Shown here piece after piece: positions 830 through 46,770 of a stretch of 55,306 nucleotides of DNA (the stretch's first letter is position 1; the number at the start of each line of letters is the position of its first letter). The position numbers and the translations under genes are program-made. The notes under the pieces were generated by a model, which searched no databases, had not been told where the DNA came from, and was given only the letters and a program-made list of their open reading frames with translations. Source of the stretch: Psammoneis japonica. Taxonomy: Eukaryota. The stretch is taken from positions 62,001 to 117,306 of the forward strand of contig QPGO01000213.1 of the NCBI GenBank assembly GCA_008632985.1. The letters are read 5' to 3'.

Positions 830-3800
830 GGGTGCTCTGAGTGCTGAAAGCAGGCAAAATGAGGTGATGACGACTTCATCGCGAATCACGACCAATCTTG
901 TCATTGTGACATCATTTGCCGAGTGCGACCCCCCTTCCAGAGCACAAACCCACCCCAAAAGCTGTGCTTCACTCAGCCAAGTTTCTTGGCTGAGGCTCCT
1001 GTTGCTCAGGTTTTTGTTCACTGTGGTGCCTGGCCGATTGGCCAGAGAACCTTTGAGGTGGTGTGGGTCTCTCACTTCAGACAGCGGGTCTCCTGGCAGC
1101 AACAGCTGCTCTCAGTTTTGACCAGCCCTGCTCTCATGGCTTCAAGCCATGGCTTGAGATTTGAGTCACTCAAAAACAGCTCCAACTTTTTTGGCTCTGC
1201 ACACATTCAGCGAAGGAGAAGCAGGCCCAAGGGTTCTTGACACCCTCACCTTGTTGACTTTGCCCTCATCAAGTTGCGAGCCAATGTGTTGGCTGCTTCC
1301 TCTGTTGTCAGGTCCAGACTCATGCACCACCCCCTCATCACACCTGCTCCCATGGGAGACAGGAAATCTCACAGTCTTCTGTGCATGTTGAAGCTTGCAT
1401 GTCTCTCTGGCTCTGCTCATCTTCCAAAGTGAAGTGGCTGCCAGCCACTGTGCTGCTTGAGCTCCTTGTGAGTGTCGTGCTTCTGTGCTGCATTGTCAGC
1501 TTACATGCCTTGCCAGTCTTTGCACTGTGCCAGCAGCAGGCACAAAGAAAACAAAACAGAGGCTCAAAATCTTGTGCTCGTGGCACATGTTCTCTCTCAC
1601 CGCACAAGTGTTTCACAGAAAAAGCCTGCAGTCTTTGTGAGGGTTGCTCCTCTGACTCAACTTCCCCAGGAAGACAACACAGGCTCTCATCAGCAGACTC
1701 TCCTGTTGTCTTACAAAAAATCTCCTCTGGCCTGTCCTCTTTCTGCAAATGCCGCACTGAAGTGCTGAGTGCCTTTTTGGCATCTTGAGTTTCTTGTGCA
1801 GCAAGGTCTGGCCCAGAGCACGCCCCACAACAAAGGCTTTGCACAAGCTCTCTCAATCCTTGCTCATCAGCATGCTCCAAGAAAGCAGATGCAGCAGAAA
1901 GCTCTGCAGCTGTTGCAGGCAACAAGGATGTGTGTGCACCACAGGCAAAATGGCAAAAGGGTTGTTGTTGCCAGTCTTTGCAAATGACTGGCTGCTGAGT
2001 TGTGTGGCTGCTTGGCAACTTGCAGCAATGTGTGCCACACTGACTGAGACTCACCCAAGCATTTGTTCTCACAGAGTCCTTCTCAGCCAGCATTGCAGAA
2101 AGAGTCCAAAGAGCTTAAAAAGAGTGGAACTTGCAAACGGCTTGCACTCAAATGCTCATCTTGTCAATGCCTTTTGGTCATTTTCTTGAAACAGCTTCTG
2201 CCTTTGTCATTTTTTCTCCAGCCCCTCTGGCACATGACAACTGCTTGCACACAAAGTTTGGCCTTTCAAAACTGGCAAGCACCAACTCTGCAAGCAAAAG
2301 CACAGTGTCTCATTGTGACTTTTTAGAAGCCTCTGTGGCACCAGCCCCAAACTCAGCACCCAACAAAGAAGTGGAGCTGCGGGCACAAAACTCAGCAGCT
2401 GGTTTGCACCACAAGAAGTGAAGTGCCACCATCTCAAAACACACAGGTGTGGCTCCTTTGATGGAGTTGTCAAGCCAAGTGGCAAATGACATGTGGAGCA
2501 AGGAGAGGGAAATCCAAACAAACAATGGTGCACCATTGCCCCCTGTCTGGAGGCTGAAGCTTCTGAGCAAACAAGAAGCTGATCTCAAGGCACAAGGGCC
2601 AGATTCACAATCTTGGCAGTTTCTTGATGAAGTCCACTGCAGCAGCAAGCAAAGATGTGAAGAACTCTGGGCATTTGCCATTGTTTGTGAGTGTCAGGGT
2701 GCTCTAAAAGATTTTCCTGGGCACACATGCTGCGTGCCTTGCTGAAGAAAGACAAAACCTTGCCACATTCTCTTCTGCATCAAAACCCCAAAAGCACACC
2801 AGAACAATGTCGTCCCCACTCATTTTGCTTGGCAATTTTGCACTGGAGCTGTGCAGGGACACCTTGAGCATGGTGAGAACACAGCAGCCTGGTTTGACCT
2901 TGGCTGCTCAGAATCCACCAGCCGGGGGGGGGGGGGGGGGGGCTCCACTCCTCCTCCTCCTGGTGCACCACACAGCTCTCTTCTCTTGTTTGCCATTGTC
3001 AAAAACAAGGCTTTGTTTGCAACAAATGGATGATCAAGAAATGGCAGTTTTGAGAGTTTGTTGTTGACCGTGTGACTCTGGACAGGTCAGCACCATTTTG
3101 ATTTCTTGGCAGGGCTTCTGCCACATGTCCTCACTTTTGCAGCCATTTTGATGAGAGTGAGAGTCAGCCAGTGCTTGCACATGACACATGGGTGTGGGTG
3201 GTGGAGAGGTGAGAACACAAGGGCAATGACATGTGGCAACATGTGTGGTGCACACGAAGCTGATGGTGCTTTTGGTTTTCTGCCTTTCTTGCAGCTGAAA
3301 GTTGGGAGAAAGCACACACAGGTGATGTGTGCCACTGCTCTCATGCTGTTTCTTGATGTTGTGTGTTGACAAGGTCAGTTGAGTGCAATGGCAAGCTGTG
3401 TGGCACCTCTCTTGCATGACAATGTGTGTGTGTGAAACTGACCACACTTTTCTTTTTTCTGCTTTGCTGTCATCCACAAATTGGCACAAGGCAAGCAAGC
3501 ACATGAAGGAGGCAAATGCCAGCACTCTCATGCTTGGTTGAAACTGAGCAATCTTCAGTGTTGACCAAACAAAGTGGCACATTCTGTGGCAGCAATGTTG
3601 ACACCCTTCTTCATTCATTGTGAAAGAAGCACCCCAGCACATGTGTTCTTGACCTGTTGCATCCAGCGAATGTGTCACCGCCGCTTGCTGCATTCATTGT
3701 GTCTTTTCTCTCTCCCACAGATTTTTCATCTCTGATGACCCTCAAAGCTTTGGAAGTTGAGTGCACACAGCTGCAGCTCAACACATCCATGTGCTTTGCA

Positions 3801-6800
3801 ATTGTTGGCTGGAGTGTGTCTTGCTTGTTCTTGCAGCATCTCCCCTGCCCTCATCCACTTGGCATGTTTGTCACAAAAGAGAGGCGCTGTGACCATCACA
3901 CTCTGTGGGCAGCAGATGGGTGCCGAATGAAAAAAAAAACAGATCACACCCAGCTCTGGCTCAGTCAACAGCCAACAAAGCTCAATGAGGGCCAGCTTTG
4001 TAAGGTTTTCACAGAGTGCTTGGATGACAACACATGAGGTGGCTCATGCATGCAACTGGGCCACAAAATGACTGTGATGGCCTTCTGTGCCTGAGAGGAT
4101 TTTGTGGGGCGAACTTCAAAAAATTGCAAAATTGCCTCAATGCAACACTCACAGAGGGCTGGCAATTGATTTTTGTTCTGTTTTTGGTGCCACTAACTCA
4201 GTCAGTTTTTTGCAACTGTTGCCATTGTTTTGTCTCTGCTTCCTCTGGTGGCTGTTGGCAAACATTTCTGCAAGTTGATGAGCCATGTCTCATCATGTTC
4301 TTAAGAAGCCTTCATGCCACCAGCCCCAACCTTGGTGCCCACAAAAGCAGAGCTTTGAATGTGTGTCAGAACAGCTGGCTCTGGCACCAGCCAAACACAA
4401 GCAAAGTGCCAAGTCTCACAAAAGGTGGGAGAGGTGTGGTCCATTGACAGGGGCACTGAGGTGGTTTCTAATGTAAATTTTCAACAAATGACATGTGACA
4501 AACATTTTGAGTCTTGTCAGTCATTTGAGCCATGAGGTGTTCATTTGCTTGTCTTTGTTGATGCCACTTGCACTCTTTGGAGATTTTGGCCCATGGGAAG
4601 AACAAAGGAGGTGGCTGCCAAAGGTGGCCCAGAAGTGCAAAGTGAGAAGGAAAAGAAGAAGGGAGAGAACAGAAAAGAGAAAGGGTCAATTTGCTGTGTC
4701 GTCAATTTGTGGTCCTTGCCATTTTCCTCAAAACAGTCCACACACAATTTGTGGCACACTTTGGTTCAGCACTGGACATTGGAGCTTAAATTGCAGCAAC
4801 CACGGCCCCTTGTCAGCATGTGATGGACCACCAACCATGTCTTTTGCAAGTGCCTTGCTTCCAATCTGCCTCAGTTTCTTGCTTTCTTTGTCAACTCCTT
4901 GCTCCATCCTTGTCTTTTGCATCTTTTGTCCATGCATCTTCAGAGCTGTTTTGCAAAAGCGGGTCACATCTCACTGCCAAGTCCTGCCAAATCTCCAGGA
5001 AAAGTCATCATTTTGGCATGTTGGACATTCTGTGAATCTGACACTTTGCTGGCAAACTTGTCATTGCTCAAGTTGTCCCTGAAAACAGTTTGAGTCCCAG
5101 CCACAGCTTTCCAGAATGATGCTGTCTCTTGTCAATCAGAAAGCTTTCTTGTTTCCAGAAGGCATGTGTTTTGGCATGCTGGCATGCCAACCTTCTCCAG
5201 CTTGTGGCTCCACTTGTGGAGGATGATGAAAGTCTCCCACCATGGGAGCAGCAGCAGCTGGGGTGACATTGTTGATGCTGGGTCTTGCTGCAAACGGAGC
5301 AGCCACACAGCAGATGGGGCAATGCCGTTGCTTGGTGCTGGAGTGGTCTGAGCAGGTGGTGCTTCAGGGTCAGCCAGGGCAGCCAACAATGCCTCATTTG
5401 ATGATGGCAATGCAGAGGCCGCCACTCCAATGTTGAAGAGCAGCAGTTCTTTTTCCACCTTTGCCCATTCCTTGCATGCTCTGCAATTGGCACCAGCCAA
5501 CTCATTGCATTGTCCCTGAGCTCCACAGAAGAAAGTTGATTCCATGATGTGTTGGCAGCTTGGAATTGCCAGTCAACAAGCATCTTGTGCAGGTGCCATC
5601 ATTCAATGGCACAAAGATCAGCACAACACCTGATGGCTTTGCAAGCTTTCTGTCCTTCTTGTCCAGACTGAACCTGGCCACTCAAAGCCACAGATGTTTG
5701 TTGGCAAGACCAGATGACCAGCAACTGCTGATGTCATGCACAAGATGAACAATGGTCAAACACAGCACAGAGTTTCTTCTCATTTGGTGGTGTGAATGTC
5801 TTGTTGCAATGTGCAGTCTAAAAATCAGGCCACTGCCACAGATCTGCATGTTCATTCTCAAAAAGTTCTACATGCATCTTTGTTGTCTTGGCTCTTTTCT
5901 GCTCAAATGATTGATTGAGGTCTCAAGGCACAGCAGAAAAAACAGTGCCATCTTTCAAGAGCTCATTGCAAAACTCCTTTGTGACAAATGCTTTGCCATC
6001 ATCCTTGCCATCTGTGGTCATGTCAGTCTCAACAAATTTAGAGCACTGTTCTCAGAGCTTCTGCAGATGCTGTGCCCACAGTTCTGCCTCGTGTGCCATG
6101 AAATCATGATTGCTTGCAAGATCTGCACCATCCCCCACAGCCTTCTTGGGGTTTCCAGCACAAGTGACACTGCTGCAGGTTCCAATGGCAGACAGCATGG
6201 GTGCTCTGCATTTGAGCACAGCTGTGGCATGTGCTGAGTCTTTTTTGCAGCCCGGCTTGTTCTCAAACTTTGCACATTGGTTGATGCCACACCAAGGGCG
6301 GGGCTTTTTTTTTGACACCCACAACTTTTTGCCCACATTGTCACATTGACACATTTACAACAGAACTTTTCCTCTTCAATCAGGAGGTCCCTGGTCAAGA
6401 CAATGCCATTGAGTGCAATGTCATTGACAAAATGTCACCTCCACTCAAAGTGACAATGTTGCTTCCAATGCCGCAAGCAAGAGCCTGATTTTCTTCAAGC
6501 AGTGTGGCCACCTTCCAGTGCCATCCAAGGAGCAGCTTCTGCACCTCAACTTTCCAAACAGCAAGAAGACAGAGCCACAGAAGTTTAAAGCAGCTGTGGA
6601 GTTCCTGGAGTCTGGAGTGCATCATGAGCAAGACCAGCAGCACACAATTCTTCCACACGACAACAAATCCATGGATTTTCACAACAGCTGCTGTGCTGTG
6701 CAGAGTGCAGCCTGTCTTCACAGGTCTTGGGGCTCAAGCAGTGGTGCACAAGAAAAATCAAAATGTGTCAACCCTTGGCAAGCAGAGAATGAGCAGCTTG

Positions 6801-8820
6801 GCAGGATTTGTGAAAAAGGTTGTGTCCAAAGCTGCCTGCAGCACTGGCCCAAAAAACTCACAAACCAACGCGCAAACAGGTGGGCCAAAGTGAAACACAT
6901 GTCAAGCAGTTGTGTGCTGCAGTGTGAAAAGAAGCTTGTGCTTCAGAAATGTCTGTTTCAAATTTGGTGCCACACAACTGCTGTGTGTCAACTTGGATGA
7001 AGCAAGTGCACCAAAGCTTCGGTCTTGACTTTGGTTTTAACATCAAATGCAGCCAATGATCTGTTGCGTGAAAATGATGGCACATGATCTGAGATCAAGA
7101 ATTTGGGCAATCAGATCTCTCTTTTGAGGATGCCCTGGTTTTTTCATTGTTGCTTGCACACCATCTGCAAAGCCACTTGGGGTGCTGGTGGCTCTGGCAC
7201 ATTTGCAACACCACAATTGGCACTTGGCACACTTGACACAACACAGCTGGCACTTGAGTGATTCACTGGTGTGGATTTGTTGACGTCCTGCTCATCTGCA
7301 GGGATTGTTTCCATCCATCATGCACTTCTTTGCACACCTGGCTTGGATTCTTGGGGAGAGTCTTGCACTCAACTGGCAAGGTTTGCTGGAGACTCACAGA
7401 AATCCTGCTGTTGGCACTCTCTGTCAGAATTTCCTCCCAAGCAGCCGCCCGCCCCCAGCTGGTGGCTGCTCCTGCTTCCCACACACAACCCCAAATGTGC
7501 CCCAGCAGGTCGATGCCATGGGAGACGCTGACCAAACATTTGCCAACAACTCTCCAACATTTTCAGACAACGGCGACAAATTCAAATGCTGAGGACCACT
7601 GCTGCTTTTGCATTTCACAGCTGAGCTCAGACACTGCCCGTCTGGTTCCTGATGAAAACTTTGGGGCACCAACATGACCTCCACCTGTTTTCATCAATTG
7701 AAACTTGACAATTTTGACATCCACTTCTGCAGGAGATGTGGTGCCATTGCCTCCAATCTTTGCCAACCCAAAGTCATGATTGGAAGGCTTCACCATTGCA
7801 AAGGGCAGCTTTTCAGCAATGGCAAGGTCTTGAAAGTTGCAATCTCGAAGGATCACCACATTGCCCCATCCACCCCCAAAACATGCAAGGCAACCTTCCT
7901 TGTTGATGGCGCAGGACTGGTCACCGTTGTCAAACACAGCCATGACATTTCAAGTGGGGAGGCTGCAAACCACTCTGGGATTGCCACAAGAAATGCCTGA
8001 ATGACCAAGTTGGCCCGATGCACTGCTGCCCACAAGAAAGATTGATTGTTGTGAGACACAGACCCATCGACAAATCCAGGGGCAACAGAGATGTGCAACA
8101 ACGGCATCAACAATGACTGTGACGGAACAGTGGATGAGGCCAATTGCATCAAATCTCCATCCACTTTGCCTTTGGATGCCCCGTCCGCATCGTTGCAACC
8201 ATGGAATGAGCCATCAGTCTCTTTTGCCCCCCAAGTGTGCACCCCTTGCATGCACCCTCAAATGTCCCGAGCAGCACACCATCCATTTCTTCCTCCCTGT
8301 TGTTGTCCCAAGCAATCCCATGTGTCTGTTCCTTTCTCGCCGAGCACTGGCATGCTCCCCTCCAGTGACCCCTTCTCAGTTGCTCCTTTGGCGGTCTGTT
8401 CTCCTGCCTGTGAGAGAAGACAAAAGCGCCTCTCTCAATGAAAAAATGAGCATTTCAAAAGGAAATTTGCCGCAACAATCATGAGCTGCACATGAAGCCA
8501 CGACACATGGTGCATTGCTGTGGACATGCATTGCAGCCATGAAAACATGGCACGATGAAGGCCTTTTGTTCAAGTTCTCTTCGGCCCCATTCTCGGATCA
8601 CAACAGCTGTGCAACCCCCCCCATGATTTGTTCTCAATGCATGAGGACAAGATGTGAAAGAAAGCAACAAAGTCTGTTGTGGCATGGCAATGATCTGTGC
8701 AAGGCACACAAGTGCCGTGCTGTTTTTGCGCCGCGGCAAAACATGGGTGCTGCTGTGCCAACAACTCCTCCTCCCACACCTCTCGCGGTGCAATCTCGTC
8801 CGGCTGGCTCTTTAAGCAGC
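830..8820. mobile_element. Degenerate repeat/TE-derived block A, depleted of TpA and CpG (element family not identified)
   Basis: About 18 TA dinucleotides in ~8 kb (manual count), very high TG/CA, no intact gene; ORF translations are rich in C/H/Q and nearly lack Y. TE origin is inferred by analogy to blocks C and D, which contain retroelement motifs. Confidence 0.65.
7380..8400 (+). pseudogene. Hypermutated remnant of a secreted-type protein with a MopE-like putative metal-binding repeat
   Basis: Hydrophobic leader LTEILLLALSVRISSQAAA near 7390. At 8045-8150 it reads DTDPSTNPGATEMCNNGINNDCDGTVDEANC, matching the D-x-D-P-x-x-NPGA-x-E-x-C-x-x-GID-N-D-CDG-x-VDE repeat. Many stops and frameshifts. 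Confidence 0.6.
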
Positions 8821-12319: not shown

Positions 12320-14340
12320 GTAACATCACCGCGTGTGCGACGACATCGAAAGCAACAGCAGCAACCGATGATGATCATTCGAAGACGGCCAGAAGTGAGA
12401 TGCCGGCAGAGCTTTGCCAACGTCAAACATGATGTCAATGGGAATCATTCGGCTCTCAGAGGCATCACGTAGAAATTGTGCAGGAGAGCACCAGAAAAAA
12501 GCCCCAAGTCCATCCGTCCCGTCCACCTGCTGCTTCTGAACACTGGCTTCTCGGGAAATCGATTTGTGCCTTTGATCAGATGACATTTCAATCATAAAAG
12601 TGGGTGCCACACATTTGGTGCAGTCGTGCGAGCAAGGGGCAGTTGTCGTGCACATTCATTCGTGTGCTGCGCAAGTGAGATCCGAGTTGATTCTGGCACC
12701 GCAGTCAGCATGTTGCTGGGTTTTTGTTGTCTGCTCAGCCTGGCATTGATGTTTTCTGTGAGCAACAGGTTGGCACACTTTTGGCAAGGGCAGTCTGGCC
12801 CAAGCAGGGTCATCTGGTGCTTGCGTGGGGAGAGACCAGCACCGCCCTCCCATTGAGGACATCTGGAGCTGATCTGGGACAAAGTGATGCGTGATCTCCT
12901 GAGGCAACAATGAGTTGCTCACACCAAAGTGATGCTCATTCTCACTTCAACACAGCGGCACACCTCCAAGTGTGGCTTTCACCATTTCTCAGCTGGTTTG
13001 GCAGAGATTCTGTGCAGCGCTGCTTTGGCTTCCTTGCCAAACAGCCCATCACCTGAAACGACAAAGGGAGCAAAGTGGCGACATTGTTCAAGGCAGGGCT
13101 TGAGGTGCTTGCGCTTTTTCTCTCATTGGCATTGTCCCAGAACTTCTTCTGGTGTCTTGGGCAGGTGTGATTTTGCGTCTGTGTCTGGAGTGCGAACATC
13201 CATGATGGCATCTGTCCTTTTTTGTCCCAAACCCTTCAGACAAGAGATCTCCGCGGTCGCCATCCTTGGACATGTTGGAGTTTGTGTTGCTTTGTGAGTT
13301 GTTGGAGGTGCCCGGGCTTCCTGAGATGCAACCAATGGGGTCAACTCGGCTCTCAGAGTCATTGCATGGAAATTGTGCAAGAGAGCACCAGAACAAAAAG
13401 TCTCAAGTCCATCCATCCATCCACCCACATCTGAGCACTGACTTCTCGGGAAATCGATTGAAATGTCATCTGATCAAAGGCACAGCTCTTCACCATGTGG
13501 GTCAAAATGATTTTGATCAGATGACATTTCAGCTGACTTCCCGAAAAGTCATCAGCCCCAATCTCACCCTCCCACACAATGTTGTGCACATTGTTTCTAC
13601 TTTGCACACAGTTTTGCATTTTTCCTCAAATGCAAAACATCAATTGTGACCGACGCTACATTTTTGAATGACTCTGTGGGCACAACATTGCAACACGAGC
13701 GATGGTGGTGTTTGCACAACACAAATTTGCATTCACCGTTGACACAGAATGTAAACCAGAAATTTCAGAAAATTGCAACACGCCCAATGCCACACAACAT
13801 GCACACACACACTGAACACGCCACTCGCCGATGTCAATCACCATCAAAGACATCTTCCGGAATTGATGACAACTGTTTCTGGAGCTGCTTGTGAATGTCC
13901 GTGTGAAGCCAACTGGAAATGCTCTCACCCTTTTCATCTGAATCTGGTTTGATGAGCTGAGTTGTGGAAGTGAGCCCATGCTGTCGGGAGTGGAAAGACC
14001 CCTTGCTGTGGCAGCTCTTCGTCAACCTCACTCTCATGCCGCTCGCTCTCGCATGTCTTCAGAACAGCAGGTTTGTTTTTAAAAATGTCATCTCAACGGA
14101 TTCACCTGGTGACCCCTTTTAAAGGAATAAGCAGAACTTGGCAAGGTTGATTTGCCTCTGATGAATTCTGCAGCAGCACGCCCTGTGGATGTCCGGGACG
14201 AAATCTTCTTCAATTTGACACTGTTGCCAAAAGTGTTTTAACATGCGCTCAATTGCAGCATTGTCAATGAGCATGCAAAATTCTTTTGGCAACTGACTGG
14301 CAGTTTTCAATGACGTTGCCGCATCGGCTCTTTGCCATCG
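12320..14340. mobile_element. Degenerate repeat block B (TpA-depleted) with ~150-200 bp direct repeats at 12435-12590 and 13333-13531
   Basis: Shared tcggctctcagag...gaaattgtgca.gagagcaccaga...cttctcgggaaatcgatt...tttgatcagatgacatttca. The second copy also has an inverted repeat tgaaatgtcatctgatcaaa / tttgatcagatgacatttca (13460-13531). Confidence 0.7.
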
Positions 14341-16604: not shown

Positions 16605-16619
16605 ACTAGGAATGCAGTT

Positions 16620-18717: not shown

Positions 18718-19599
18718 GATTTGTTGCGCTCCACTAGCTAGCTTTCAATCTCATCGTGGCGACACAAGCTCAGTCAAAACGGTACTTTTGGCCGTTGACT
18801 GTCATTTTCTCTGTCTTTTCGAATTCAAACGAACAAATGAATATACAGTAATACATACATAGAATCATAGAAGACATAAATAATTTAGCGATGTACAACG
18901 TCACAATGGCGATAGACGTACGCACGGAAAGGCAGCCCAACGGCTTCCCATCATCAGCTGCAGCATGAGAGAGGACCGACCGCACCGGTGCAGCAGTCCT
19001 GCAAAATGGACATGTCTGGTGCGCGACTTTGTTGCAGAAGTTGAGTCATCCTGCCTGCCCATCTTCAAACTCAGATTCAGGCAAGACTCTGGGGGAGTGC
19101 CGCTCTGACATCATGATGTGTGCCATCAACTGACACCACAAAAGGTGTGTGGCCAATTTTCTGATTTGCTGGCTGGTGGTGGCTGGGTCGCAGAAGGTTG
19201 GCCATTTTGTTCCAACATTTTTGTTTTGCACTTGACTCTTGGAAAAGTCACCCACATCAGAGCGTGCATTGCAGTGATCCAGACCACCTTTCTTGCAGTG
19301 ATTTTTTTTAATCCATTGCAGGCAAAATTCTGTTGTTTCAAACCTTGACAGAGTTGTGCAGCTGGCAATGACATGTCAACTGTGACAAATTGTCATTTTC
19401 ATGCTGTGGGAGTGCTGACCAGACTCCCCCTCCCTGTGAGGAAAAATGTTTCACCATGAACAGGGGCAAGTTTTCCCTGTGAGAGTGCACACCCTCTGTC
19501 CCCACAAAACCTGTAAATTGGGGTCATTTGCGCTGCACCAAGAACATCACATTTTGTTGTTTGCGTTTAAATTGGATGATGCTGATGGAGACAACACCC

Positions 19600-20125
19600 C
19601 TGGAGTTTGCAGCAGCAGTTGCAACTTGCTTTCTTCAAGTGCCGCGCTGCTGGCAACCACCTTGTTCATTGCAAAAAAGTGCAGAACATGTTGTGAGAGA
19701 GCAGTGCAATGTGGGTGAACTAACACTGCCAACAGGAACGGCAACATGGACTTGCCCGTGCTGATTCTGGAGCAGGCGAGTTTGCAGCAGGAGCTGCTGC
19801 TCCATCATTTGAAGTGCCACTGCTCCACTCCACCTCATTCATTGCCAAAAAGAGCAAAACACATTGGGAGAGCATGACACAGATGAGCTGGCACAACCCA
19901 TGGGAATGGCAACATGAGCACGCCAGTGTGTCAGACGCCACTGATTCTGGAGCAGGTGAGTTTGCAGCAGAAGTGCTGTTGCTCCTCTGATTGTCCACCC
20001 TCACTCATTGCCAAAAAGTGTGGAGCACACATTGTGAGAGCATGTTGTGGATGAACTGACATGAACTGCAACACACACTTGCTGGTGCATGGGTGCATCT
20101 GGTGCCACTGATTCCAGAGCAACAT
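19600..20125 (+). repeat. About 3 diverged tandem units of ~175-180 bp
   Basis: Anchors gagtttgcagcag (~19603, 19778, 19958), cattgc.aaaaag (~19667, 19840, 20006) and tgatt(c)(t/c)(g/a)gagca (~19762, 19943, 20109). Confidence 0.75.
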
Positions 20126-34743: not shown

Positions 34744-35309
34744 AGAAGGACACACTGACAGCGACGTATGAAAGTCCATTATTCTGGCCGAGAATTGAGT
34801 TAAACTTAAATCCTTTATACTTTGTAACGATGGTTTTGCTCTCTATCTATGACTGGTTAATGTGTAGCTTGGGAAACATAAGTAACCCGAGAGCTATGGC
34901 AGGTTGTCACCTCCTGCATCAATGTACTACACCTTTGCTTGGAATGTTTTGGAACGCACACCGTGAAAACCGAAAAAAGAATTCCTTGCCAAGTGCCACC
35001 GAAAAAATCAACTACCCTGCCGATCAACATCATGACGTTATTGTTTGTGCTTTTCCTTCTTCCTGTCACGCGCGCCACTCTACCAGCGCTGAATCTCACA
35101 AATTGCTGGCAACATGTGGCAATGAGTTCCGACTCAGACTTCCAAGTGGAAACGGGGGAGAGGGGGCACAACAACCCGCAAAGAACAACATGCAGCATCT
35201 ATGCAGGTTTCTGCGCTGGTGCACAATGGATGATTTTCAAGAAGCAGAAACTCTGCTGTGCCTGTGTGCATCTCATTTCTTTTGTCGCACCGCAGCTCTC
35301 TCAGAGTTC

Positions 35310-37770
35310 CCTGGCCAGATGGGCCTTGCAGCGCTCAACCACAATTCTGACAGTGTTCCCAGGGTTCCACCAGAGATTGCTGACATCCTTGGTCTGCATT
35401 TGGTGTTTTTGTGGGTTGCATCAGGGCTTTCCTTTCACTCTGGAGCTGCGAGAGTCCCCCAGCTCTGACATGGATGAAGTGACTGGGGGGCACAACTGCG
35501 GTGCAAGATCGGCCTCACAGCACTCTGCCACAGTTCTCAAAGTGTTCCCTGGGTGCTGTCAGAGACCCTCAATGCTGTCAGCCTGCAGTTCTTGTGTTGG
35601 TTGGTCACACATCTGGGTGTCCTTGCACTCTGGAGTTGGGAAATCACAGCTCTCACTCTGGCATGGATGAAGAGTGACTGTGTGGGGGGTGCAACTGCAA
35701 ACAGATGAGCCTTAAAACACTCCACCACTGTTCTCAAGTGTTCCCCAGATTGCACCAGAGAGTTGCAGTTTCTTTGGCCTGCAGTTGTTGTTTGGTCAGT
35801 CAGAGTCAAAGCTGTGTTCTGCCTCAAGCTTCCGTGTGCAGTCTCCAATGGGGGGGTCAAAATGGCCCATTTGTCACAGCATGCAGAATCTGCATGGGTT
35901 CCAGCATTGAACTTGCTGCAAAAGACAGAGTCAGCACACATGACCTGCTCTGTGCAAGTGCCACCAAAAAACTCAAAAACCAACATCATGGTGGGCAATC
36001 GGAGCGGATTTTGGTCATTTCATGAAAAAACCAAGTGAATTTTTTACTCTCATCTCTGCCAGATTTCTGCAGTCAATCTCTGAACAGCCCGTGTGTCATT
36101 CCAGATGGGCGGAAGAGAGAAGAGTGAAGACTCTGACTTCAAAAACTGAGCAAGGCATCAACAACCATCTTTGGTCTTTTGTCACCATGGCTCCATCTCT
36201 GAGGGCATTAAAATCTCAATGGGAAGCCAGAGAACACTTTGAGAGCAGTGGTTGAGAGTTGCAAGGCTTGCCTGCTGGTGCAGCTGTGCCAAGCAAAGCC
36301 TCCAACCTCACACAACTGCTGCTGGCCAACTCAACAATTGCAGGCTGAGGGCATTGAAGCTCTCCAGAGAAACCCTGGGAACTTTTTGAGAATGGCAGCA
36401 GAGTGTTGCAAGGCTAATCTGGTGCAGTTGCAACCCCCCAACTGCTCAATCCATGCCAAAATGAGAGGAGAAGAATTCCCAGCACTGCTCCAGAGCAAAA
36501 AGACACCCTGCAGTGCAATCAACTGACCCAACAACTGCAGGCTGAGGGCATTGAGTCAAGGTCTCAAGAAGAACCCAGGGAACACTTGAGAATGGTGATG
36601 GAGTGTTGCAAGGCTCATCTGGCACAGTTGCAGCCACCAGGGACTCAAACCATGCCAGAGTGAGAGCTGAAACTCCTGACTCCAGAGTGAAAAGACACAC
36701 ACTGATGCAGCCAACCCACCCAAAAATTGCAGGCTGAGCACATTGGATTTCTCCAGCAAAGCCCAAAGAACACTTTGAGAGAATGGCGGTGGAGCATTGC
36801 AAGGCTCATCTGGAGCAGTTGCAGTCACCAGTCACTTGATCCATGCCAGAGTGAGAGCTGACAAAACTCCTGACTCCAGAGCAAAAGGACACACTCGTGC
36901 AGCCAACCAACCCAAGAACTGAGAGCTGAGGGCATCAGGGCTTGACTGCAGGCTGAGAGGATTGAAGGTCTCCCATGGAACCCAGGGAACACTTTGAGAA
37001 TGGTGGTGTGGCATTGCAAAAGGCTCATCTGGCACAGTTGCAGCCACCAGACACTTGGCCCATGCCAGAGTGAGAGCTGAAACTCCTGACTTCAGAGTGA
37101 AAAGACACCCTGATGCAACCAACCATTACAATGACTTCAGCCTGAGAGCATTGAAGGTCTTCAGTGGATTCCAAGGAACACTTTGAAAATGGCGAGTGAT
37201 TCATGGCACTGAAACTCCCAACTCCAGAGTGAAAGGACACCCTGGCACAACCAAACAGCCCAACAGCTGCAGGCTGAAGGCACTGAAGATCATGCACGGA
37301 ACACTTTGCGAATGGTCGTGGAGTTTTGAAGAGCTCATCTGGTGCAGCTGCAGCCCCCAGTCCCTCAATCCATGCAAAAATGAGAGGAGAAAAAAATTCC
37401 CATTTGCTCCAGAGTGAAAGGACACCCCCTGGTGCAACAAACCAACCCACAACTGCAGGCTGAAGGCATCAATGGTCTCCTGTGGAACCCAGGAGGAGGC
37501 CACACTTTGAGAATGGTGATGGTGGGTTTGTTGAAGGGCTCATCTGGTGCTGCTGCAGTCCCTGGTCACTCAATCCATGACAAAATGAGAAGAGAAAATT
37601 TCCCAACTGCTCCAGAGTGAAAGGACACCCCGATGCAACCAACCAACCCAACAGCCACAGGCTGAGGTCATTGAGTCAAAGGTCTCAAGAGGAACCCAGG
37701 GGACCATTTGAGAATGGTGGTGGAGTGTTGAGAGGCTCACCTGGTGTGGCTGCAGCCACAATGCTCCAGG
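35310..37770. repeat. Diverged ~190-200 bp satellite: about 3 units in minus orientation (35310-35800) and about 9 units in plus orientation (36230-37770)
   Basis: Anchor ggaacactttgagaatgg at ~36386, 36586, 36776, 36994, 37183, 37306, 37507 and 37708; its reverse complement (ttct..agtgttccc) at ~35345, 35535 and 35730. Confidence 0.85.
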
Positions 37771-38259
37771 CACACAGCAACATGATGACAGATTGGTGCT
37801 GACCTCATCCAGCCCACATCAACTCCAAGATCTTCATTGGTCAATGCCCCCAGTGCTCATGCTCTTTCATGCTTGCCACCTTCTTGCCAATTTGAACAAG
37901 GGCTTCCCTGTGAGCCACAATGCAAATGTGTGCTCCATTGCATTTGAAGCCATGACGGCAATGATGAATTGTCCCTTGTGGGTCATCGTGACTCACCTGA
38001 AGACTGGCAGGAGTGGCTGCACTGTCAAGAAACCAGGTCACCTCATTGAGTCAATGAAGGCTGAAATCCACATCCCAACCAACAAGTTGCCAACTGCCCA
38101 AAAAAAATCCCAAGTGCTCAGCAAAGTCAGAAACATTGAACAAACAGTTTTTGATGGCACCACAATGGGACAGCATTGCAAATGCTCTCAGATCAAAAGG
38201 CTTGCATGCTGTGATCAACATTTTCAGCCAAAGTGCCAATCAAGAACATGACACACTCT

Positions 38260-38930
38260 CAAAGAAATGCACCCTCTCTGGCTCTTGCAGCTGTTGCCAA
38301 TTCTGCTGACAACCCAAAACTTGGGAGGAAGCCATGAGTGGACCTGATCTCGCCGCCTGTCTCAAGGCTTGTGATGTCAAAATTGACTCCCTTGTTGATG
38401 ACAAAGATGCTTGGGAAGAAGTTGACTGCCAAGATTGGACAAACATCCTGTCATCCACTTGGGCCTTCAGATGCAAACAATGCCCTGATGGGTCAATTCA
38501 AAAACACAAAGCCTGATTCTGTGTCCGTGGTGACAAGAAATTGGAATGTGTTGGCCACTTTGATGCCTTTGCTCCACTGCAGATTGGACAATGGCACAGC
38601 TGATGCTTGTGCTGTCTCAAATTTTTGAGCTCTCAACCAAACAAGTTGATTGTGTTGCTGCTTTTGTCCATGCTCCAATTGACAACGATCCAAAAGCATG
38701 GGACAACATGATGCGTGAAGAGTGAGAGCACTCTGGACAATCGCGGGGCTTTGACTCCAGCTGACATCATGCCAAGCTCCAAGCACTGTGCCATCAAGTG
38801 TCAGGCTTTGCTTGCAGCTGAAACCAAATCAAGTCACTGTGTCCAAGATTGCAACAGATTTTAACAAAGGGACTCATCACAGCCAAATTGAGTCTGTTCA
38901 CAAGTTGCTCTGCGGTTGGTGGCTTCTTTG
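38260..38930 (+). mobile_element. Ty1/copia (CoDi-like) pol remnant: RT N-terminus joined by deletion to the RNase H C-terminus
   Basis: WEEAMSGPD...AWEEVD...NILSSTWAFRCKQCPDGSIQKHKA*FCVRGD; QVDCVAAFVHAPID; ILTKGL...KLLCGW. Confidence 0.92.
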
Positions 38931-41339
38931 TTGAAATCATGCATGACTCGCACACGCTCATGCTTGCGCGTGCAATTTTCTGCTTCCAGCCTTGCACCTG
39001 CAGCACTGTGTGGTGCTCTCTAGAGAGTGCAAAACAAGACATTGGCACGCAGCTCCGTTGATTGCATTGCTGTCATTGGCCCTGCTGCTGGCAATGCATT
39101 TGCCATTCACCCTCCAGCTGATCTCTTCCAACTCTCAGACAACAGTCATTGCACCCACAAAATGACAACAAAGCATCATCATCTTTGCTGTCATCCATGG
39201 TAAATCATGCATCATGCATCCAGAACCATGAGCACAGCATGTCACATCAAGCACTGGGAGACCATGACATGCATTGCCAGCCCCTGTTGGACCTCTCCCC
39301 AACAAACAAGAACAACGCAGTCTGCCAGCAAGGAAGAAGAATGCATGTGCAACAACAAAACAAAGGCACAAGACCCTGCACAGCATGCCAACAACAATTT
39401 AGATTCGCTTGATCAAGCAGCTGCAATGCACTGGGCTGAACGTGCTCAAGTGCTGCAACACAAACTGCACCAGCAACAAGCAACAAGACACAAAGCAGCT
39501 TGTTCCCAAGTTTGTTTTGGAAAGAAAAGCATTCAAGCTGAAGTGCAAGGAGCAGTTGGACATTTGTTGTGGGGAACTGGCACCAGAATTGCAAGAAGAA
39601 AACAAGGAATTGCAACATCAAGTGAGTGCACTGGAAGAGGTGAGTTGCTCCTTGTGTCAGCAAGCATCTGAGTTGAGCCGATTGGCACAAGTTTCAGACT
39701 CAGGAAATTGCAAGCTTTGGCAAGAAAAGAAAGAGCTGCAAATGGAAGCCAACAGACAAGACAAGCAAACTCTTGAACATGAGTGGACAGAACAGCGCAG
39801 TGACTTGAGCAAGCTGAGCATGCACAAGCAATTGGGTGATGATGCGGAACCCAATGTGATTGGTTGGGAAACATCAGGGTGAAGCACAAGTGCTGTGAAG
39901 GAAGCAGAGGGGCCTTGTCTTTTTAAATTGCTGGGCATTTTTGAAGAGGCCATGGGTGATGAGGTTGAAAAGTCTTGGTTGGAATCTGACAGTCACATGA
40001 TGTGCCATGAAACGGACGAAACATCCACTCCACTGTGCAAGGAATGTGTCGCCGTTTTGGAGGCTCTCACACAAATGTGATGAGTGCTGACAATGAAGAA
40101 GAAAGCAACAAACATGCAGATGTTGCATTGCTGGTGGGTTTGACAAAAGGAATTCAGCAAGAAGCATCACACCAGAGGAGGAAGTGTCAGTCATCAGATG
40201 GCATCCGCGACTGAACGAATCATCCACTCAAGATTTCAAATTCTGTCCTTCAATGGAAGAAGAATTTCGGCATTGCCTGACAATGTTGTGTGTGCAAGCA
40301 TCCAACAAAATGCAAACCTGCAATGAGTTGCTGCACAAAGAATGAAGTGGGTTGCTGTGCAAAACATTGGATTTGTTGGAAGCCAGCACCAGGCAGTCAA
40401 TGGCATGGAGACACGCGATTGTCGCGCGGTCACAAACTGACTCGACAAACTTGTTTCTTCTCATGCACTCAAGTGCCGCCAACAAAAAGACACTCTCAAC
40501 AAACAATGCAATTGCAGTGGACACACGTTGGCTGCCCATGTCACACAACATCATGGGCAGTGAATGCCGCGTGCAGCGGCATTGGATGGCAAGAGTTTGA
40601 GCTCAGTCCTTGCATTTGGTGTGCATTGTGCATGAATCAAGTGCCGGCAAGACCTGCCATGATGCAGTGGCATCCTCCACCTGCACTGAATCATTGTTGA
40701 GACCACCTGTGTTGCTGCTCATGGCATCCAACAGTGACTCGGCCCATCCCACCCCAGCTTTCACAACTTCGATCCAGACTGTCATTGTGAACAAACCGAG
40801 TTTCACTCCCCCCCACACACATGCCACTGACTGCAACATTTAGTCCAGTCAAGCAAGCACCCTTGAAGCCCTGCAACCATCATCCCTGCATCCATCTGCA
40901 CACACATGGAGTGCGACAGGGGTGCTTTGGACACAACCAAAGATCAACTGGTTTGGCATTTCCATGGCACTGTCCAAGATGTGTTGACTGCTGCTGGTCC
41001 CCATTTTTTTTAAGTGTTTTACTTGTGCGCCGAGCACAGCGGATGATCGTTTCGATTTGACTGTCAGTGCCCATTGCATCTGACTCTCTCCAGTTTCTCA
41101 TGTTTTTAATGAAGCATTTTATTGTGGCGTCCTGCATGCTCAACGCAAGAGCGCTGCTTGCCTGTCGGAGGGAGTTTCGGGAGACATACGGACAGTGTCG
41201 GAGGGAGTTTCCATTCGGGCGAACGGCAAAAAAAAACACGCCACACCATGGCGTAAATCTTCAAGGAAGAAACTGCTTGATTTACCGTAAGTGCCAAGAA
41301 AATGTGTTTTTAGATCACTCGCTCCTATCACGGGTTGCA

Positions 41340-42449: not shown

Positions 42450-42469
42450 TTGTATACGGACAAACCTGT

Positions 42470-43200: not shown

Positions 43201-44169
43201 ACGTGATCTCCCCATCGGGTGAAATGCGCATGGAATAAATATTTAAACTAAACTAAAACAAGATGTGTTGACTGCTAGTCCCCATCAGATTTGCGTCTGA
43301 TGACTCATGCTCCCTCACCACGGCACGGTCGTCAACAAGAAGGAGTGCTGCTGCCTGTGGTACCCTTGGGGGGCCCCGTGCAGGTTGTTAATAGCCCGTC
43401 AGCTCTTACAACAGCCATGTTCAATGTTTTTTTACGATTAACATGAAAAACTCGGGGCTTTCTTAAACTTGGTGCTTTCCTAACCAAGGGGCCTGTTGTT
43501 TGCTTGGCGCCCCGCCAAGGTTCTGGGCTTGTCTTTTTCATCGAGGTGCTTTCCTAACCTCGCCGTTTTAGTTGTAAACATCGAGTTTCGTCTCGAGTGG
43601 GGTTTCCTGAGGGTGCAGAGAATGGTACACTCTCTGTGCATCACCCAACAGGCGGTCGTCCTACCGTACCGAGACACTCGTCAGTGCCAGCAATTGTAAG
43701 AATGTTTAAACCTGCATGAGAAGGAAGAAGGTATAACTCAGCCAGTTTGGCATCGTTGGAAAGGGGTTAGCACTTCTTCATGTCTTGCAGAGCGCCGCAA
43801 CCATACTGCAGTGCAGAGAGGGCGGTCGATGCAGAAGAAGTGAGACGAAAACACGTCGTGCAGCGAAGATCACGAGACGACGAACAAACAATGTGGCCAA
43901 ATCTTTATTGAGCTGGCCTGCCTTTTTCAATTCAAACACTCACATCACGCCTTCTTGGCTTCGAATGAGCTGCAACATATTATATACATTGATTAGAACA
44001 ACAATTCATTCGTGGCGCCAATTTGAACGGAAAAGAGGCCTCCCACCGCACCTGTGCAACGCTTTTCGCGCCTTCCGCGGCGATTTCAAAAGAGTGTGGC
44101 TGGCGGGCAAAGTGCGCCTAAAAATAAATAAGGAGTTTTTTAGCGGGGACGTTAAAGTTTTGCCGTTGA

Positions 44170-46770
44170 AGCAATTCAAAACCGATGGCGTGCCTTTCCG
44201 ACGGCGGATTGAAATCAACATTGTCTTTGAAATTTTCAAATCAACCCAGACGAACTTTTTTTGCTCAACTCGCAGCTTCCATGAGAACATTTTTTCTGAA
44301 TCACATGGGCATTCTGCAGGAGTCGATGAGGTTGTGCGGCGAACAACACTCCATTCATGTGGGGTTCGACGAGTGGAGGACACTGTTCTGCAGGAATCAC
44401 TGAGATTCTGAGAGTGTTTTTGGAGCAGGAAAATGTTTGGGCAAACCTTTTCAGACAAAGACAACACTCTCAAAGTTCAAGTTAGAGCAGGTGAAGAACC
44501 TTGAGGAATCCTGCAGGCTGCACAGTGCATTTGACCCACCAACACATTTGACCCTGGGGCAAAGATTTGTGAAAAGCGCAGTGGAGACATTGAGCTTTTG
44601 CAGCTGAAGCAGTTCAAAACCGATGGCATGCCTCGCTTGTCTCCGACAATTCAAACAAATTGTTTTTGAAATTTTCAAATGAACCCACAATGCATTTTTT
44701 GCTCAACTCACAGTTTTGGCCCAGCATGAGAACATCTCCAAATCACATGAACCCATGCATTCTGCAGAAGTCAGCAGGTGTGCCTCTTTGCGAGAATTGT
44801 CCCTTCCTGTGCATTGGCAGGAAGTGCAGCCACAATCCATGCACAGGCCCAGTGCTTGCCGAACAGCACCAACAGATGAGGGAAAATTGGCGGGAGTTTT
44901 GCCGGCTTTCTTGGACAGGGCCTCAAAGCCCATTCAATCAAAGATGGGGTTGCCCTCGTCAATGACGTGAAGGCTGTCACTGCCGCAATTCTTGCTCGGA
45001 AGACAGACATCAAATTCAATGTCACAACCCCTCCAATGAAAAAAGACAACAGCATGGTGCATGCCCAAGTGTGACATCGCGCAACAACAATGCACAACAC
45101 CTCCCATCAGCGTGCAAACAGATGCGTCTGGCCCATGTCAAGATTGGGTGGCATCATCACAAGTCCGTGGACTTGGGGCAGAAAGACCCCCATTTGCTTG
45201 CAATCACAGAAAGTTGTGCCTCTGACCAGGAGGAGGACACCAAGCTGTGCAGAACAACTCCAAACCAATCTGGCCACACTCCTCTTTCTGTTTGTTGGAC
45301 ATCTCTCACTCCAGCTGTCACCTCCATGATTTGAGAAACGGCACCTGCCTCTGTCACCATTTGCCATCATGTTGAAGACAGTCACATCAAACGCACCATG
45401 TGGGTTTTCACCCATGTCAACTGGAAAGCATGCGTTGTCAGCTGTGTGCTGTCCAAAAACTTTCCTCAGTGTGGTGAAGCATGTTTTCATGCGCCTGGTG
45501 AGGGAAGAAGAAAGCATCTTCTCAGCCTTTTTGTTTGTGCAGTGCTTTGCAAACTGGCGCCGTTGGCTGTTGTCATCATCAGGATTTGGGCCCAAGGCAA
45601 AGAGTTTGAGCAACTTGATGAAAGCTTGGTTGAAGAACTTGCAGCAGTGAAGAAGGTCAACTGAAAGCGGGGGGGGGGGGGCACATGACAGCTGTGGGAC
45701 AGTCGCTTTCTTAATTTAGAATGTCGCTCAACAGGGAGTTGCAATCAACATGGACAGGAGGGGCATCAAAGTCCTTGTCAGCAGGAGAGAGGTTGTGTGC
45801 CAGCCCCAGTGGATTCTTGGGATCAAACAAGGAATCTGTGACCAGGCCAACATCGGCGGGCAACAGGAGGAGGAGAAGCTGCATCATCTGCTGGCGTTGG
45901 CAGTGGCTGCATTGGTGGCAGTCACATTGGCAGCAGCGGCATGCAATCAACCAACCTCCGTGTCGGCAATGCAGGGGTGGGCACCATTGCAACATGGTCT
46001 TCGCTCTCAGCAGCAATTTTGTTGACTCACAACGAAAATTTGCCTGCAAAGCCAGGCCATGGCAATGACAAAGTTGGCTTGCTCTGAAGCCCAAAAGTTT
46101 GCTCCTTGTTTTGGCTTGCCAAATTGGCTGGAGTTGCATGCCCAATGGTCTTCGCTCTCAGCAGCAATTTTGTTGACTCACAACGAAAATTTGCCTGCAA
46201 AGCCAGGCCATGGCAATGACAAAGTTGGCTTGCTCTGAAGCCCAAAAGTTTGCTCCTTGTTTTGGCTTGCCAAATTAGCTGGAGTTGCATGCCCAGTGCT
46301 GCTGCGCGCAGCTTTGACACCCGCGCTCCTTCTTTTTTAATTCTGGCGAAGTTTGAGTTGGTTGGCAACAGAAAGCTCATCTCTGGTCTGCTTTTTTTGG
46401 CTTGTCTCTAGAGTCTGGGCTGCTGCTCTGTGTGTGTGTGCATGCTACAAAACAGTTGACCATTGTGGCAAGGCAATTTGTTGGCCACAACAGAGGGCTT
46501 TGCTTGTGCGCGGCAATGTTTGGTTGGTTGGCGCGAAAATTGAAAATGTTGTGGCAGCATGCACCCCCCAAAAAGTGCAGCCAAATGTGGGTCTTCATTG
46601 GTGGCAGATGCACGAAGAATCAAGCTGGGGGACAAGGTTGACAGACTGCATGTGCAGCCAGTCCTTCCAGTCTGCTGCACTGTGCATCACAGATCTGCAG
46701 TCACAGTGACGTCTGTTCTTGCTCAGTTGTGCCGACAGTCTGTCAATGGTTGAGAAGTTTTTTTTAGGAT
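44170..46770. mobile_element. Degenerate repeat/TE block E; related sequence continues to the left with normal composition
   Basis: TA essentially absent from 44170 onward; internal diverged repeat 44148-44323 vs 44586-44772. Confidence 0.65.
45994..46295 (+). repeat. 151-bp tandem duplication with a single mismatch
   Basis: 45994-46144 vs 46145-46295; the only difference is aaattGgctg (46126) vs aaattAgctg (46277). Confidence 0.95.

What the first reader, a model, noticed from the sequence alone, without database searches (positions are those of the whole stretch)
830..46770. Candidate undescribed genome-defence mutator: repeat-restricted TpA->TpG/CpA hypermutation (opposite to RIP) acting together with CpG decay
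Seen: five blocks (830-8820, 12320-14340, 18950-24000, 35050-41100, 44170-46770) have almost no TA. Block A has about 18 in 8 kb by manual count, where several hundred would be expected from base composition. TG/CA is very abundant, while genes and spacers in between keep normal TA. Established: 5mC deamination explains CG->TG/CA but cannot remove TA, and fungal RIP creates TA (CpA->TpA). Inference: a second, context-specific A:T->G:C process acts on both strands of TE DNA, so TA and CG both converge on TG/CA and coding capacity is destroyed. Candidate mechanisms are a DNA adenine deaminase (TadA-derived editors prefer TA), error-prone pol eta repair (A->G at WA motifs) triggered in methylated DNA, or a modified A/T base that miscodes. 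I am not aware of a description of this, but could not search the literature.
Basis: partly seen in the sequence, partly recalled or inferred. Interest (0 to 1): 0.95.

Follow-up and report, generated by a model that had tools for sequence, protein, structure and literature searches.

The report
TpA-erasing hypermutation blocks in an alga
Five stretches of this diatom-like alga's DNA have had almost every TA and most CG dinucleotides converted to TG or CA, the footprint of a TA-targeted mutator so far reported only in a 2026 preprint on an unrelated alga.

Summary
Five blocks (22,967 bp in all) hold TA at 0.29% of dinucleotides, against 4.06% in the DNA between them. CG is 1.40% against 5.54%. 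TG+CA rises by 7.73 points, almost exactly the combined TA and CG loss of 7.92 points.

Copies of internal repeats differ by TG versus CA at the same sites: 44 TG, 44 CA, 0 TA, 0 CG. Another assembly of a public run of this organism reproduces the blocks and their junctions.

Three of its claims do not:
- "Repeat-restricted": block A is essentially single-copy.
- "TE": no transposon or viral domain was found.
- "Undescribed": bioRxiv 10.64898/2026.01.13.699255 shows de novo TpA hypermutation in Bigelowiella natans.

This window is not B. natans. Its genes match diatoms best, so it would be a second lineage.

New details here are near-saturation, TA loss running ahead of CG loss, and surviving TAs concentrated in TTAA and other TTA/TAA contexts. 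The enzyme is unknown.

An earlier scan note (e1-5320246) reports a CA/TG-rich island in a phage. It was read differently there and was not tested here.

The parts
776..8813 (.). Block A. It is TA-depleted (17-18 TA) and CG-depleted, and mostly single-copy. CG recovers towards the right end from about 7500.
12323..14080 (.). Block B. TA o/e is about 0.08 and CG only about half depleted. It belongs to a dispersed, diverged repeat family. One X1 contig joins 12322 directly to 14700.
18919..23981 (.). Block C. It is TA- and CG-depleted. Its left part (about 19344-20100) is a high-copy repeat of about 180 nt.
35200..40841 (.). Block D, TA- and CG-depleted.
44153..46765 (.). Block E. TA is depleted and CG about 0.3-0.4 o/e. 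The first ~330 bp are TA-free with normal CG.
36177..37731 (+). Array of units of about 192 nt inside block D. The copies differ mainly by TG versus CA at the same sites.
35327..35837 (-). Inverted copies of the same 192-nt unit.
19603..20077 (+). Tandem units of about 180 nt inside block C.
45994..46295 (+). Twin 151-nt copies in block E. Their only difference is TTGG versus TTAG (46126/46277).
8055..8438 (+). Relic ORF in the TA-free right end of block A. It carries one MopE-type metal-binding motif (PF11617; 36.2 bits, 33.7, cut-off 27).

Best explanation
The five blocks are silenced, non-genic DNA. Some is dispersed repeat, some single-copy, and its origin is no longer recognisable. Two context-specific transition processes have rewritten it in place.

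Process 1: the A of TpA is changed to G on either strand. Because TpA is self-complementary, this gives TpG or CpA with equal probability.

Process 2: the C of CpG is changed to T on either strand, as expected from deamination of 5-methylcytosine. This again gives TpG or CpA.

Both routes end in TG/CA, which neither process attacks. The sequence therefore drifts to a TA-free, CG-poor, TG/CA-rich state with unchanged GC content, and any coding capacity is lost.

TA loss is faster or more complete than CG loss. It is least efficient at TTAA and other TTA/TAA contexts. Neighbouring active genes are spared right up to their starts.

Shown here: the footprint, its direction, its symmetry between strands and its action in place.

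Inferred: that the agent is a targeted host activity like the one seen acting de novo in Bigelowiella natans. The most likely chemistry is deamination of adenine in DNA to inosine. I put about 0.4-0.5 on that step alone.
For: Dinucleotide budget. Blocks versus background: TA -3.78 points, CG -4.14, TG+CA +7.73. GC is 0.488 versus 0.477. AA, TT and AT change by 1 point or less.

Forward simulation from the window's own background DNA. With 93% of TA and 74% of CG converted by transitions, TG rises by +3.96 (observed +3.85). CG decay alone gives +2.05, TA to TT/AA gives +2.47 and TA to TC/GA gives +2.63. Side-effects on the 7 other dinucleotide classes correlate at r = 0.72 for the two-process model, against -0.36 for CG decay alone.

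Action in place. In six internal repeat families, adjacent columns polymorphic for T/C then A/G carry TG 44, CA 44, TA 0, CG 0. The control order (A/G then T/C) carries all four types: AT 10, GT 7, GC 7, AC 8. In the 8-unit alignment, CA and TG co-occur in 22 of 174 column pairs, against 0-9 for the seven other double-transition pairs.

Ongoing change:
- The only difference between the 151-nt twin copies is TTGG/TTAG.
- Of the 4 differences listed between the window and X1 contigs inside single-copy block A, one is CA/TA and one TG/CG.

Both strands: TG:CA is 888:921, 178:191, 550:616, 602:667 and 271:280 in the five blocks, with no consistent same-strand runs.

Context: 53 of 62 surviving TAs lie in TTA/TAA, against 435 of 1180 in the background. 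TTAA occurs 20 times against 2.7 expected. ATAC/GTAT, ATAG/CTAT, ATAT and GTAC occur 0 times against 26.8 expected. Chi-square p = 4e-33.

Decoupling: every block has TA o/e <= 0.08, while CG o/e ranges from 0.16 to 0.55.

Assembly: X1 contigs reproduce block A and bridge its junctions.

Precedent: in B. natans, 230 of the 231 mutations in the two viral regions (302 nuclear single-nucleotide mutations in all) were A to G or T to C, all of these at TpA. The authors also found 124 TpA-poor, CpA+TpG-rich clusters genome-wide (Results read).
Against: No less-mutated copy or outgroup was available, so the ancestral state of individual sites is inferred, not seen.

The budget and the simulation both assume that the blocks began with the composition of the flanking DNA. 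The simulation under-predicts the GC-dinucleotide gain (+0.29 against +1.85 observed).

A tetranucleotide regression meant to separate TA from CG ancestry gave unstable coefficients.

Pairwise differences between repeat units also include many transversions (737) and other transitions (573), against 204 events at signature sites. Much unrelated divergence has therefore accumulated as well.

No transposon or viral domain marks the blocks as foreign.

Run X1 may be the sample the window was assembled from.
Confidence: 0.8

Rival explanations
1. The footprint is the same, but the chemistry differs. One option is a modified thymine at TpA (5-hydroxymethyluracil or a base-J type) that mispairs with G. 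Another is error-prone repair synthesis at WA motifs in silenced chromatin. Neither involves adenine deamination.
For: TpA is self-complementary, so T to C at TpA gives exactly the same TG/CA outcome as A to G (established base-pairing logic). Nothing or 57 distinguishes the two. The preprint's ADAT2 candidate rests on sequence and predicted structure only.
Against: No T-modifying enzyme or modification is known to me for this lineage (recalled, not searched). A pol-eta-type WA spectrum would also hit AA, yet AA/TT are retained or slightly raised.
Confidence: 0.25
2. Editing took place on RNA. Transcripts of retroelements were hyper-edited A to I at UpA by an ADAR- or ADAT-like enzyme and then reverse-transcribed and inserted, so the blocks arrived already TA-poor.
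For: A preference for U before the edited A is known for ADARs (as cited in the preprint's Discussion). Blocks B and C are multi-copy.
Against: TG and CA are equal on the same strand in all five blocks, and there are no same-strand runs. Tandem and inverted repeat units diverged by TG/CA after duplicating in place. Block A is essentially single-copy. No reverse-transcriptase or integrase domain was found. No LTR pairs appear even in a transition-blind search.
Confidence: 0.05
3. Native composition or selection. The blocks are foreign elements, viral or otherwise, that avoid TA and CG by their own evolution.
For: TpA and CpG are under-represented in many genomes and viruses (search listing only).
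Against: TA o/e of 0.03-0.08 over kilobases, without open reading frames. No RY period-3 signal in most of the blocks: median 0.89 against 1.99 outside. Five unrelated sequences share the same state. Repeat copies differ by TG/CA, with TA and CG missing.
Confidence: 0.04
4. Artefact. The pattern comes from mis-assembly or systematic mis-calling of modified bases.
For: The one run that holds the DNA may be the window's own source.
Against: Separately built contigs at depth of about 58 match block A with 0-8 differences per piece and cross both junctions into normal DNA. GC content is unchanged and the edges are base-sharp.
Confidence: 0.03

Closest known systems
TpA-specific hypermutation of integrated viral DNA in Bigelowiella natans (Mettrop et al., bioRxiv 10.64898/2026.01.13.699255). 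I read the abstract, the Results, the Discussion and term searches; figures and supplements were not seen.
   Same: Only TpA is hit, giving TpG or CpA on either strand. The effect is confined to discrete regions beside a normal genome. There is a long-term footprint of TpA loss with CpA+TpG gain, and many affected sequences carry no annotation.
   Different: The host here is diatom-like, not a chlorarachniophyte.

The blocks are near saturation: TA is 0.29% of dinucleotides, against 3.3% in the B. natans giant-virus region.

No viral or transposon domain is recognisable here.

CpG is depleted in parallel; the preprint's text never mentions CpG (0 occurrences).

A TTAA/TTA-refractory context is seen here. 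The words context, flanking and trinucleotide do not occur in the preprint's text, and its figure 2B could not be seen.

De novo events were not observed here.
Decay of methylated CpG by deamination of 5-methylcytosine at silenced repeats. Diatom transposons are CpG-methylated through DNMT5a (PMC9998398, passages read).
   Same: CG loss with TG/CA gain, restricted to non-genic blocks.
   Different: It cannot remove TA. On its own it yields only about half of the observed TG/CA gain (+2.05 against +3.85).
Fungal repeat-induced point mutation (RIP).
   Same: Transition-only degradation of selected DNA on both strands, leaving genes intact.
   Different: The direction is opposite: RIP turns CpA into TpA and raises TA and AT content (search listings; otherwise recalled). 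Here TA is erased and GC content is unchanged. Block A is not a repeat at 85% identity or more.
ADAR hyper-editing and TadA/ADAT adenine deaminases.
   Same: A to I (read as G) with a preference for T/U before the target. This is the most plausible chemistry.
   Different: These enzymes act on RNA in nature. No such gene could be examined here. The footprint here is at DNA level, symmetric between strands and made in place.

Membership tests
TpA-directed hypermutation (B. natans type) | The changes are A to G / T to C at TpA only, giving TpG/CpA. | tested here: met
   This was tested as a footprint, not as de novo events. The TA loss plus CG loss equals the TG+CA gain. Only the two-transition model reproduces that gain. 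AA, TT and AT are retained. Repeat copies carry TG 44, CA 44, TA 0, CG 0.
TpA-directed hypermutation (B. natans type) | [quoted passage not shown] | tested here: met
   23 of 55 windows pass, in runs of 8, 5 and 6 windows plus two runs of 2. The thresholds were set on the B. natans genome, so the transfer is approximate.
TpA-directed hypermutation (B. natans type) | The targets are of foreign origin (virus or transposon). | tested here: inconclusive
   0 viral or transposon Pfam families were found. Blocks B and C belong to diverged multi-copy families, and one contig lacks 12323-14699. Block A (830-7200) and block D were searched only as ORFs of about 85 aa or more.
TpA-directed hypermutation (B. 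natans type) | The de novo mutation rate in the regions is raised about 1000-fold. | not testable with these tools
   This needs mutation-accumulation lines or population resequencing. There are only hints: the twin-copy TTGG/TTAG difference and the CA/TA and TG/CG differences from X1 contigs.
Fungal RIP | C to T at CpA, producing excess TpA and AT-rich DNA. | tested here: not met
   TA o/e is 0.03-0.08, CA is enriched 1.7-1.8-fold and GC is 0.488.
Fungal RIP | It acts on duplicated sequence only. | tested here: not met
   Block A lies at the single-copy contig depth of about 58, with short local bumps. Contig depth is not a calibrated copy number.
Methyl-CpG decay | CG depletion balanced by TG/CA gain in silenced DNA. 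| tested here: met
   CG is 1.40% against 5.54%. CG/TG or CG/CA differences occur between repeat copies (40 events) and against X1 contigs. Methylation itself was not tested.
RNA-level A-to-I hyper-editing of retroelements | Strand-asymmetric, clustered A to G changes in elements that passed through RNA. | tested here: not met
   TG:CA is about 1:1 in all five blocks and runs-test z ranges from -3.1 to +2.7 without a trend. No reverse-transcriptase domain and no LTRs.

The most novel reading that the evidence does not exclude
A DNA-level, TpA-directed adenine-editing genome defence is shared by distant algal lineages of the SAR supergroup (here a diatom-like stramenopile, and the rhizarian B. 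natans). It is aimed at silenced chromatin regardless of copy number and outpaces methyl-CpG decay. It also has its own extended specificity: RTAY-type sites are erased completely and TTAA is spared. If so, a natural double-stranded-DNA adenine base editor awaits discovery by comparing these genomes.
Probability: 0.3. Interest if true: 0.9.

Novelty: new member of a known kind. Interest (0 to 1): 0.75.

Why it matters
Until a 2026 preprint, no eukaryotic process was known that specifically erases TpA.

A second, unrelated algal lineage with the same footprint, here driven to saturation, would show that the process is not a peculiarity of one species. It would also give a comparative handle on the unknown enzyme: genes shared by carriers of the signature and missing from species without it.

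There are practical consequences too:
- DNA treated this way becomes invisible to homology-based transposon and virus annotation; here there were 0 domain hits.
- It changes local mutation-rate and composition models.
- A natural TpA-specific A-to-G activity on DNA would interest base-editing work.

The decoupling of TA loss from CG loss, and the TTAA-refractory context, are concrete properties that any candidate enzyme must reproduce.

Tried and rejected
Origin of the blocks:
- Pfam on 118 of the 205 stop-to-stop ORFs of 70 aa or more. The 87 shortest or edge ORFs were dropped by hand. Result: no transposon or viral family.
- Read-through six-frame Pfam (stops as X) on B, C, E and 7200-9000 gave only the MopE motif. 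The first attempt on all blocks was too large to print. Block A (830-7200) and block D were not read through.
- A transition-blind (purine/pyrimidine) repeat search found no LTRs, terminal repeats or homology between blocks.
- Stop counts per frame show no preserved long frame.
- A period-3 signal appears only at 7201-8700 and 44401-46200.
- A full HMMER search with the MopE ORF matched only a repeat motif of about 30 aa in giant repeat proteins, so a Tyr-to-Cys/His codon test of direction was not possible.

Separating TA from CG ancestry by tetranucleotide regression was unstable.

Relatives: 80 metagenome loci (536 kb) around VTC homologues show no such block. These are short, gene-centred contigs, so this is weak evidence of absence.

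Expression: no RNA holder was listed. Contigs of run X2 lie only on genic parts and none on the blocks. This is not evidence of silence.

Data that could not be had: no whole genome is held, and cluster-member names could not be looked up because the database was off.

Other Pfam scans: the flanking ORFs gave 0 families. One search identified the flanking genes (see the full report).

Earlier notes of this scan: none on this genome or sequence. One phage note was not pursued.

Literature: searches found no other description of localised TpA hypermutation. Subscription journals are not covered.


Full report
**1. Observation**

|---|---|---|---|
| 830-8820 | 18 | 0.03 | 0.16 |
| 12320-14340 | 10 | 0.08 | 0.55 |
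| 18950-24000 | 24 | 0.07 | 0.22 |
| 35050-41100 | 15 | 0.04 | 0.21 |
| 44170-46770 | 8 | 0.05 | 0.38 |

TG and CA stand at 1.6-1.9 times expectation in every block.

All 30 TA-free gaps of 250 bp or more in the window lie inside these blocks. The TA positions refine the limits to 776-8813, about 12323-14080, 18919-23981, 35200-40841 and 44153-46765. Edges are sharp: at about 46765, TA and CG reappear within a few bases. 23 of 55 1-kb windows pass the thresholds that a recent preprint used for the same signature.

As an outside control I fetched 80 loci (536,290 bp) around homologues of the window's VTC gene from metagenomes. None shows the combined TA/CG loss with TG/CA gain. Long TA-free gaps there occur almost only in DNA of 65-83% GC with normal CG (the three longest gaps per locus were examined).

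**2. Is the assembly right?**

One public run (X1) holds 96% of block A's sampled words. Its separately built contigs, at depth of about 58, match block A as follows:
- 0 differences over 4498-6148 and over 6172-7234;
- 1 difference over 2973-3938;
- 8 differences over 1-2907 and 2 over 7216-9249.

The last two pieces cross the block's left and right junctions into normal DNA. X1 may be the sample the window came from, so this excludes mis-assembly better than it excludes a chemistry-specific error.

**3. Setting**

The flanking genes are eukaryotic:
- a calreticulin exon at 283-879 (-);
- a PhoX-type phosphatase at 16620-17687 (-);
- a ferredoxin-domain gene at 15595-16356 (+);
- a DnaJ protein at 49222-50355 (+);
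- an SPX-VTC-DUF202 polyphosphate polymerase at 52717-54867 (-).

The VTC ORF's best hits are unnamed, at 73-82% identity. The four hits among the best 120 that carry an organism name are all diatoms (Bacillariaceae sp., a "Staur..." transcriptome, Cylindrotheca closterium, Nitzschia sp.), at 65% identity. The only named hit of the calreticulin exon is again Cylindrotheca.

No hit approaches identity. The organism is therefore a diatom-like alga that is not in the named protein sets, and it is not Bigelowiella natans. That last point is an inference from the absence of near-identical hits.

**4. What the blocks are made of**

No transposon or viral protein family was found. I searched 118 ORFs, then frames read through their stops for blocks B, C, E and the right end of A. 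The single hit is a MopE-type metal-binding motif at 8055-8140. It matches only a 30-residue repeat of giant repeat proteins.

A repeat search blind to transitions (purine/pyrimidine coding) finds no LTRs, no terminal repeats and no homology between blocks. Coding periodicity in the same coding is absent from most of the blocks: median 0.89, where 1 is random, against 1.99 outside. It appears only at 7201-8700 and 44401-46200.

Contigs of run X1 pile up over 12007-14674 (summed depth 357-955) and over 19344-20000 (2093), against about 58 over block A. Of the 758 contigs laid, 527 are less than 95% identical to the window. Blocks B and the left part of C therefore belong to diverged multi-copy families, while A is essentially single-copy. 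Depth here is not a calibrated copy number.

One X1 contig joins 12322 directly to 14700. A form without block B therefore probably exists, although what lies between the two sides in that contig is not known.

**5. Direction and nature of the change**

Relative to the DNA between them, the blocks lose 3.78 percentage points of TA and 4.14 of CG. They gain 7.73 of TG+CA. GC content is unchanged (0.488 against 0.477), and AA, TT and AT move by 1 point or less. General GC-biased conversion is thereby excluded.

I simulated the two processes on the window's own background DNA, converting 93% of TA and 74% of CG by a transition on a random strand. The predicted TG gain is +3.96 against +3.85 observed. 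Alternative models fall short:

| Model | Predicted TG gain |
|---|---|
| Both transitions | +3.96 |
| CG decay alone | +2.05 |
| CG decay plus TA to TT/AA | +2.47 |
| CG decay plus TA to TC/GA | +2.63 |
| Observed | +3.85 |

The two-process model also gives the best account of the side-effects on the other seven dinucleotide classes (r = 0.72). It still misses most of the GC-dinucleotide gain.

**6. Action in place**

Block D holds about ten copies of a 192-nt unit in direct and inverted arrays. C and B hold smaller repeats, and E holds a twin of 151 nt.

Across these six families I took every pair of adjacent alignment columns polymorphic for T/C followed by A/G. These carry TG 44 times, CA 44 times, and TA and CG never. 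The control order (A/G then T/C) carries all four combinations: 10, 7, 7 and 8. This is what is expected if ancestral TA or CG sites were resolved independently in each copy, on either strand with equal chance.

The same alignments also contain 737 transversions and 573 other transitions, so the units are old and diverged in other ways too.

The youngest pair, the 151-nt twins, differ at one base only: TTGG against TTAG. Inside single-copy block A, four differences from the X1 contigs are listed. Two fall at signature sites: CA in the window against TA in the contig at 8086, and TG against CG at 8247. Only the best-supported 40 of 433 differences were shown to me.

**7. Properties of the process**

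- It hits both strands equally. TG:CA is close to 1:1 in all five blocks and there are no consistent same-strand runs. This argues against editing of a single RNA or DNA strand in long tracts.
- It is faster or more complete than CG decay. TA is at 0.08 or less of expectation in every block, while CG ranges from 0.16 to 0.55. The margins 12323-12470 and 44153-44483 are TA-free with normal CG.
- It has an extended context. Of the 62 surviving TAs, 53 lie in TTA/TAA, against 435 of 1180 in the background. TTAA occurs 20 times against 2.7 expected. ATAC/GTAT, ATAG/CTAT, ATAT and GTAC occur 0 times against 26.8 expected. The distribution fits neither uniform survival (p = 4e-33) nor fresh creation from TG/CA (p = 5e-17).
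- It stops close to active genes. Block A fills the space between the calreticulin ORF (ending at 879) and the ORF starting at 8945.

**8. What is known**

Five full-text searches found one description of such a process: bioRxiv 10.64898/2026.01.13.699255. I read its abstract, Results and Discussion and searched its text. Its figures and supplements were not available.

In mutation-accumulation lines of Bigelowiella natans, 231 of 302 nuclear mutations fell in an integrated giant virus and a virophage. Of those 231, 230 were A to G or T to C, and all of these fell at TpA. The authors also found 124 TpA-poor, CpA+TpG-rich clusters across the genome. They propose an ADAT2-like adenine deaminase, on sequence and predicted structure only.

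That text does not mention CpG, diatoms or flanking context.

For diatoms, PMC9998398 (passages only) reports CpG methylation of transposons maintained by DNMT5a, and a RID-like DNMT4 of unknown function. It reports no TpA process. Fungal RIP works in the opposite direction.

**9. Verdict**

Its claims of repeat restriction, transposon identity and absence of any description are not.

The most likely reading (0.8) is in-place, both-strand TpA to TpG/CpA hypermutation of silenced DNA, running alongside methyl-CpG decay. It is the same kind of process as in B. natans, seen here at saturation in a diatom-like alga. The chemistry is unresolved; adenine deamination is favoured at about 0.4-0.5.

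Noticed in passing
window 47094-47166: A near-perfect hairpin in normal DNA about 330 bp right of block E: two arms of about 21-24 nt (aatcggctttcgtcacccact / agtgggtgacgaaagccgatt) around a short loop.
   Followed up: no
window 12322/14700: One X1 contig joins 12322 to 14700, skipping 2377 bp. The skipped piece holds block B and also about 600 bp of TA-normal DNA (14081-14699). This may be an insertion/deletion polymorphism between haplotypes or strains. No target-site duplication is evident at the ends.
   Followed up: partly
window 15451-15547: Contigs of run X2 skip 97 bp inside the ferredoxin-domain gene. This looks like a spliced intron, so X2 (kind guessed as DNA) behaves like cDNA.
   Followed up: no
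window 35327-35837 and 36177-37731: The 192-nt units of block D form two arrays in opposite orientation, about 340 bp apart. This is a large inverted-repeat architecture of unknown origin.
   Followed up: partly
window 50447-50818: An assembly gap of 168 N is followed by an 83-nt tandem repeat (2 copies, 91% matches) rich in CTAG and GGGCCC.
   Followed up: no
window 42206-42451: A 119-nt tandem duplication (96-99% identical) in TA-normal DNA between blocks D and E.
   Followed up: no
window 7500-8813: The right end of block A keeps TA at zero while CG climbs from 0.27 to 0.61 of expectation. It also shows period-3 signal and a MopE-type motif. It may be a younger, formerly coding piece joined to an older block.
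   Followed up: partly
window 52717-54867 (-): The SPX-VTC-DUF202 gene is split into two ORFs (54007-54867 and 52717-53946), about 60 bp apart. This is presumably a short intron.
   Followed up: no
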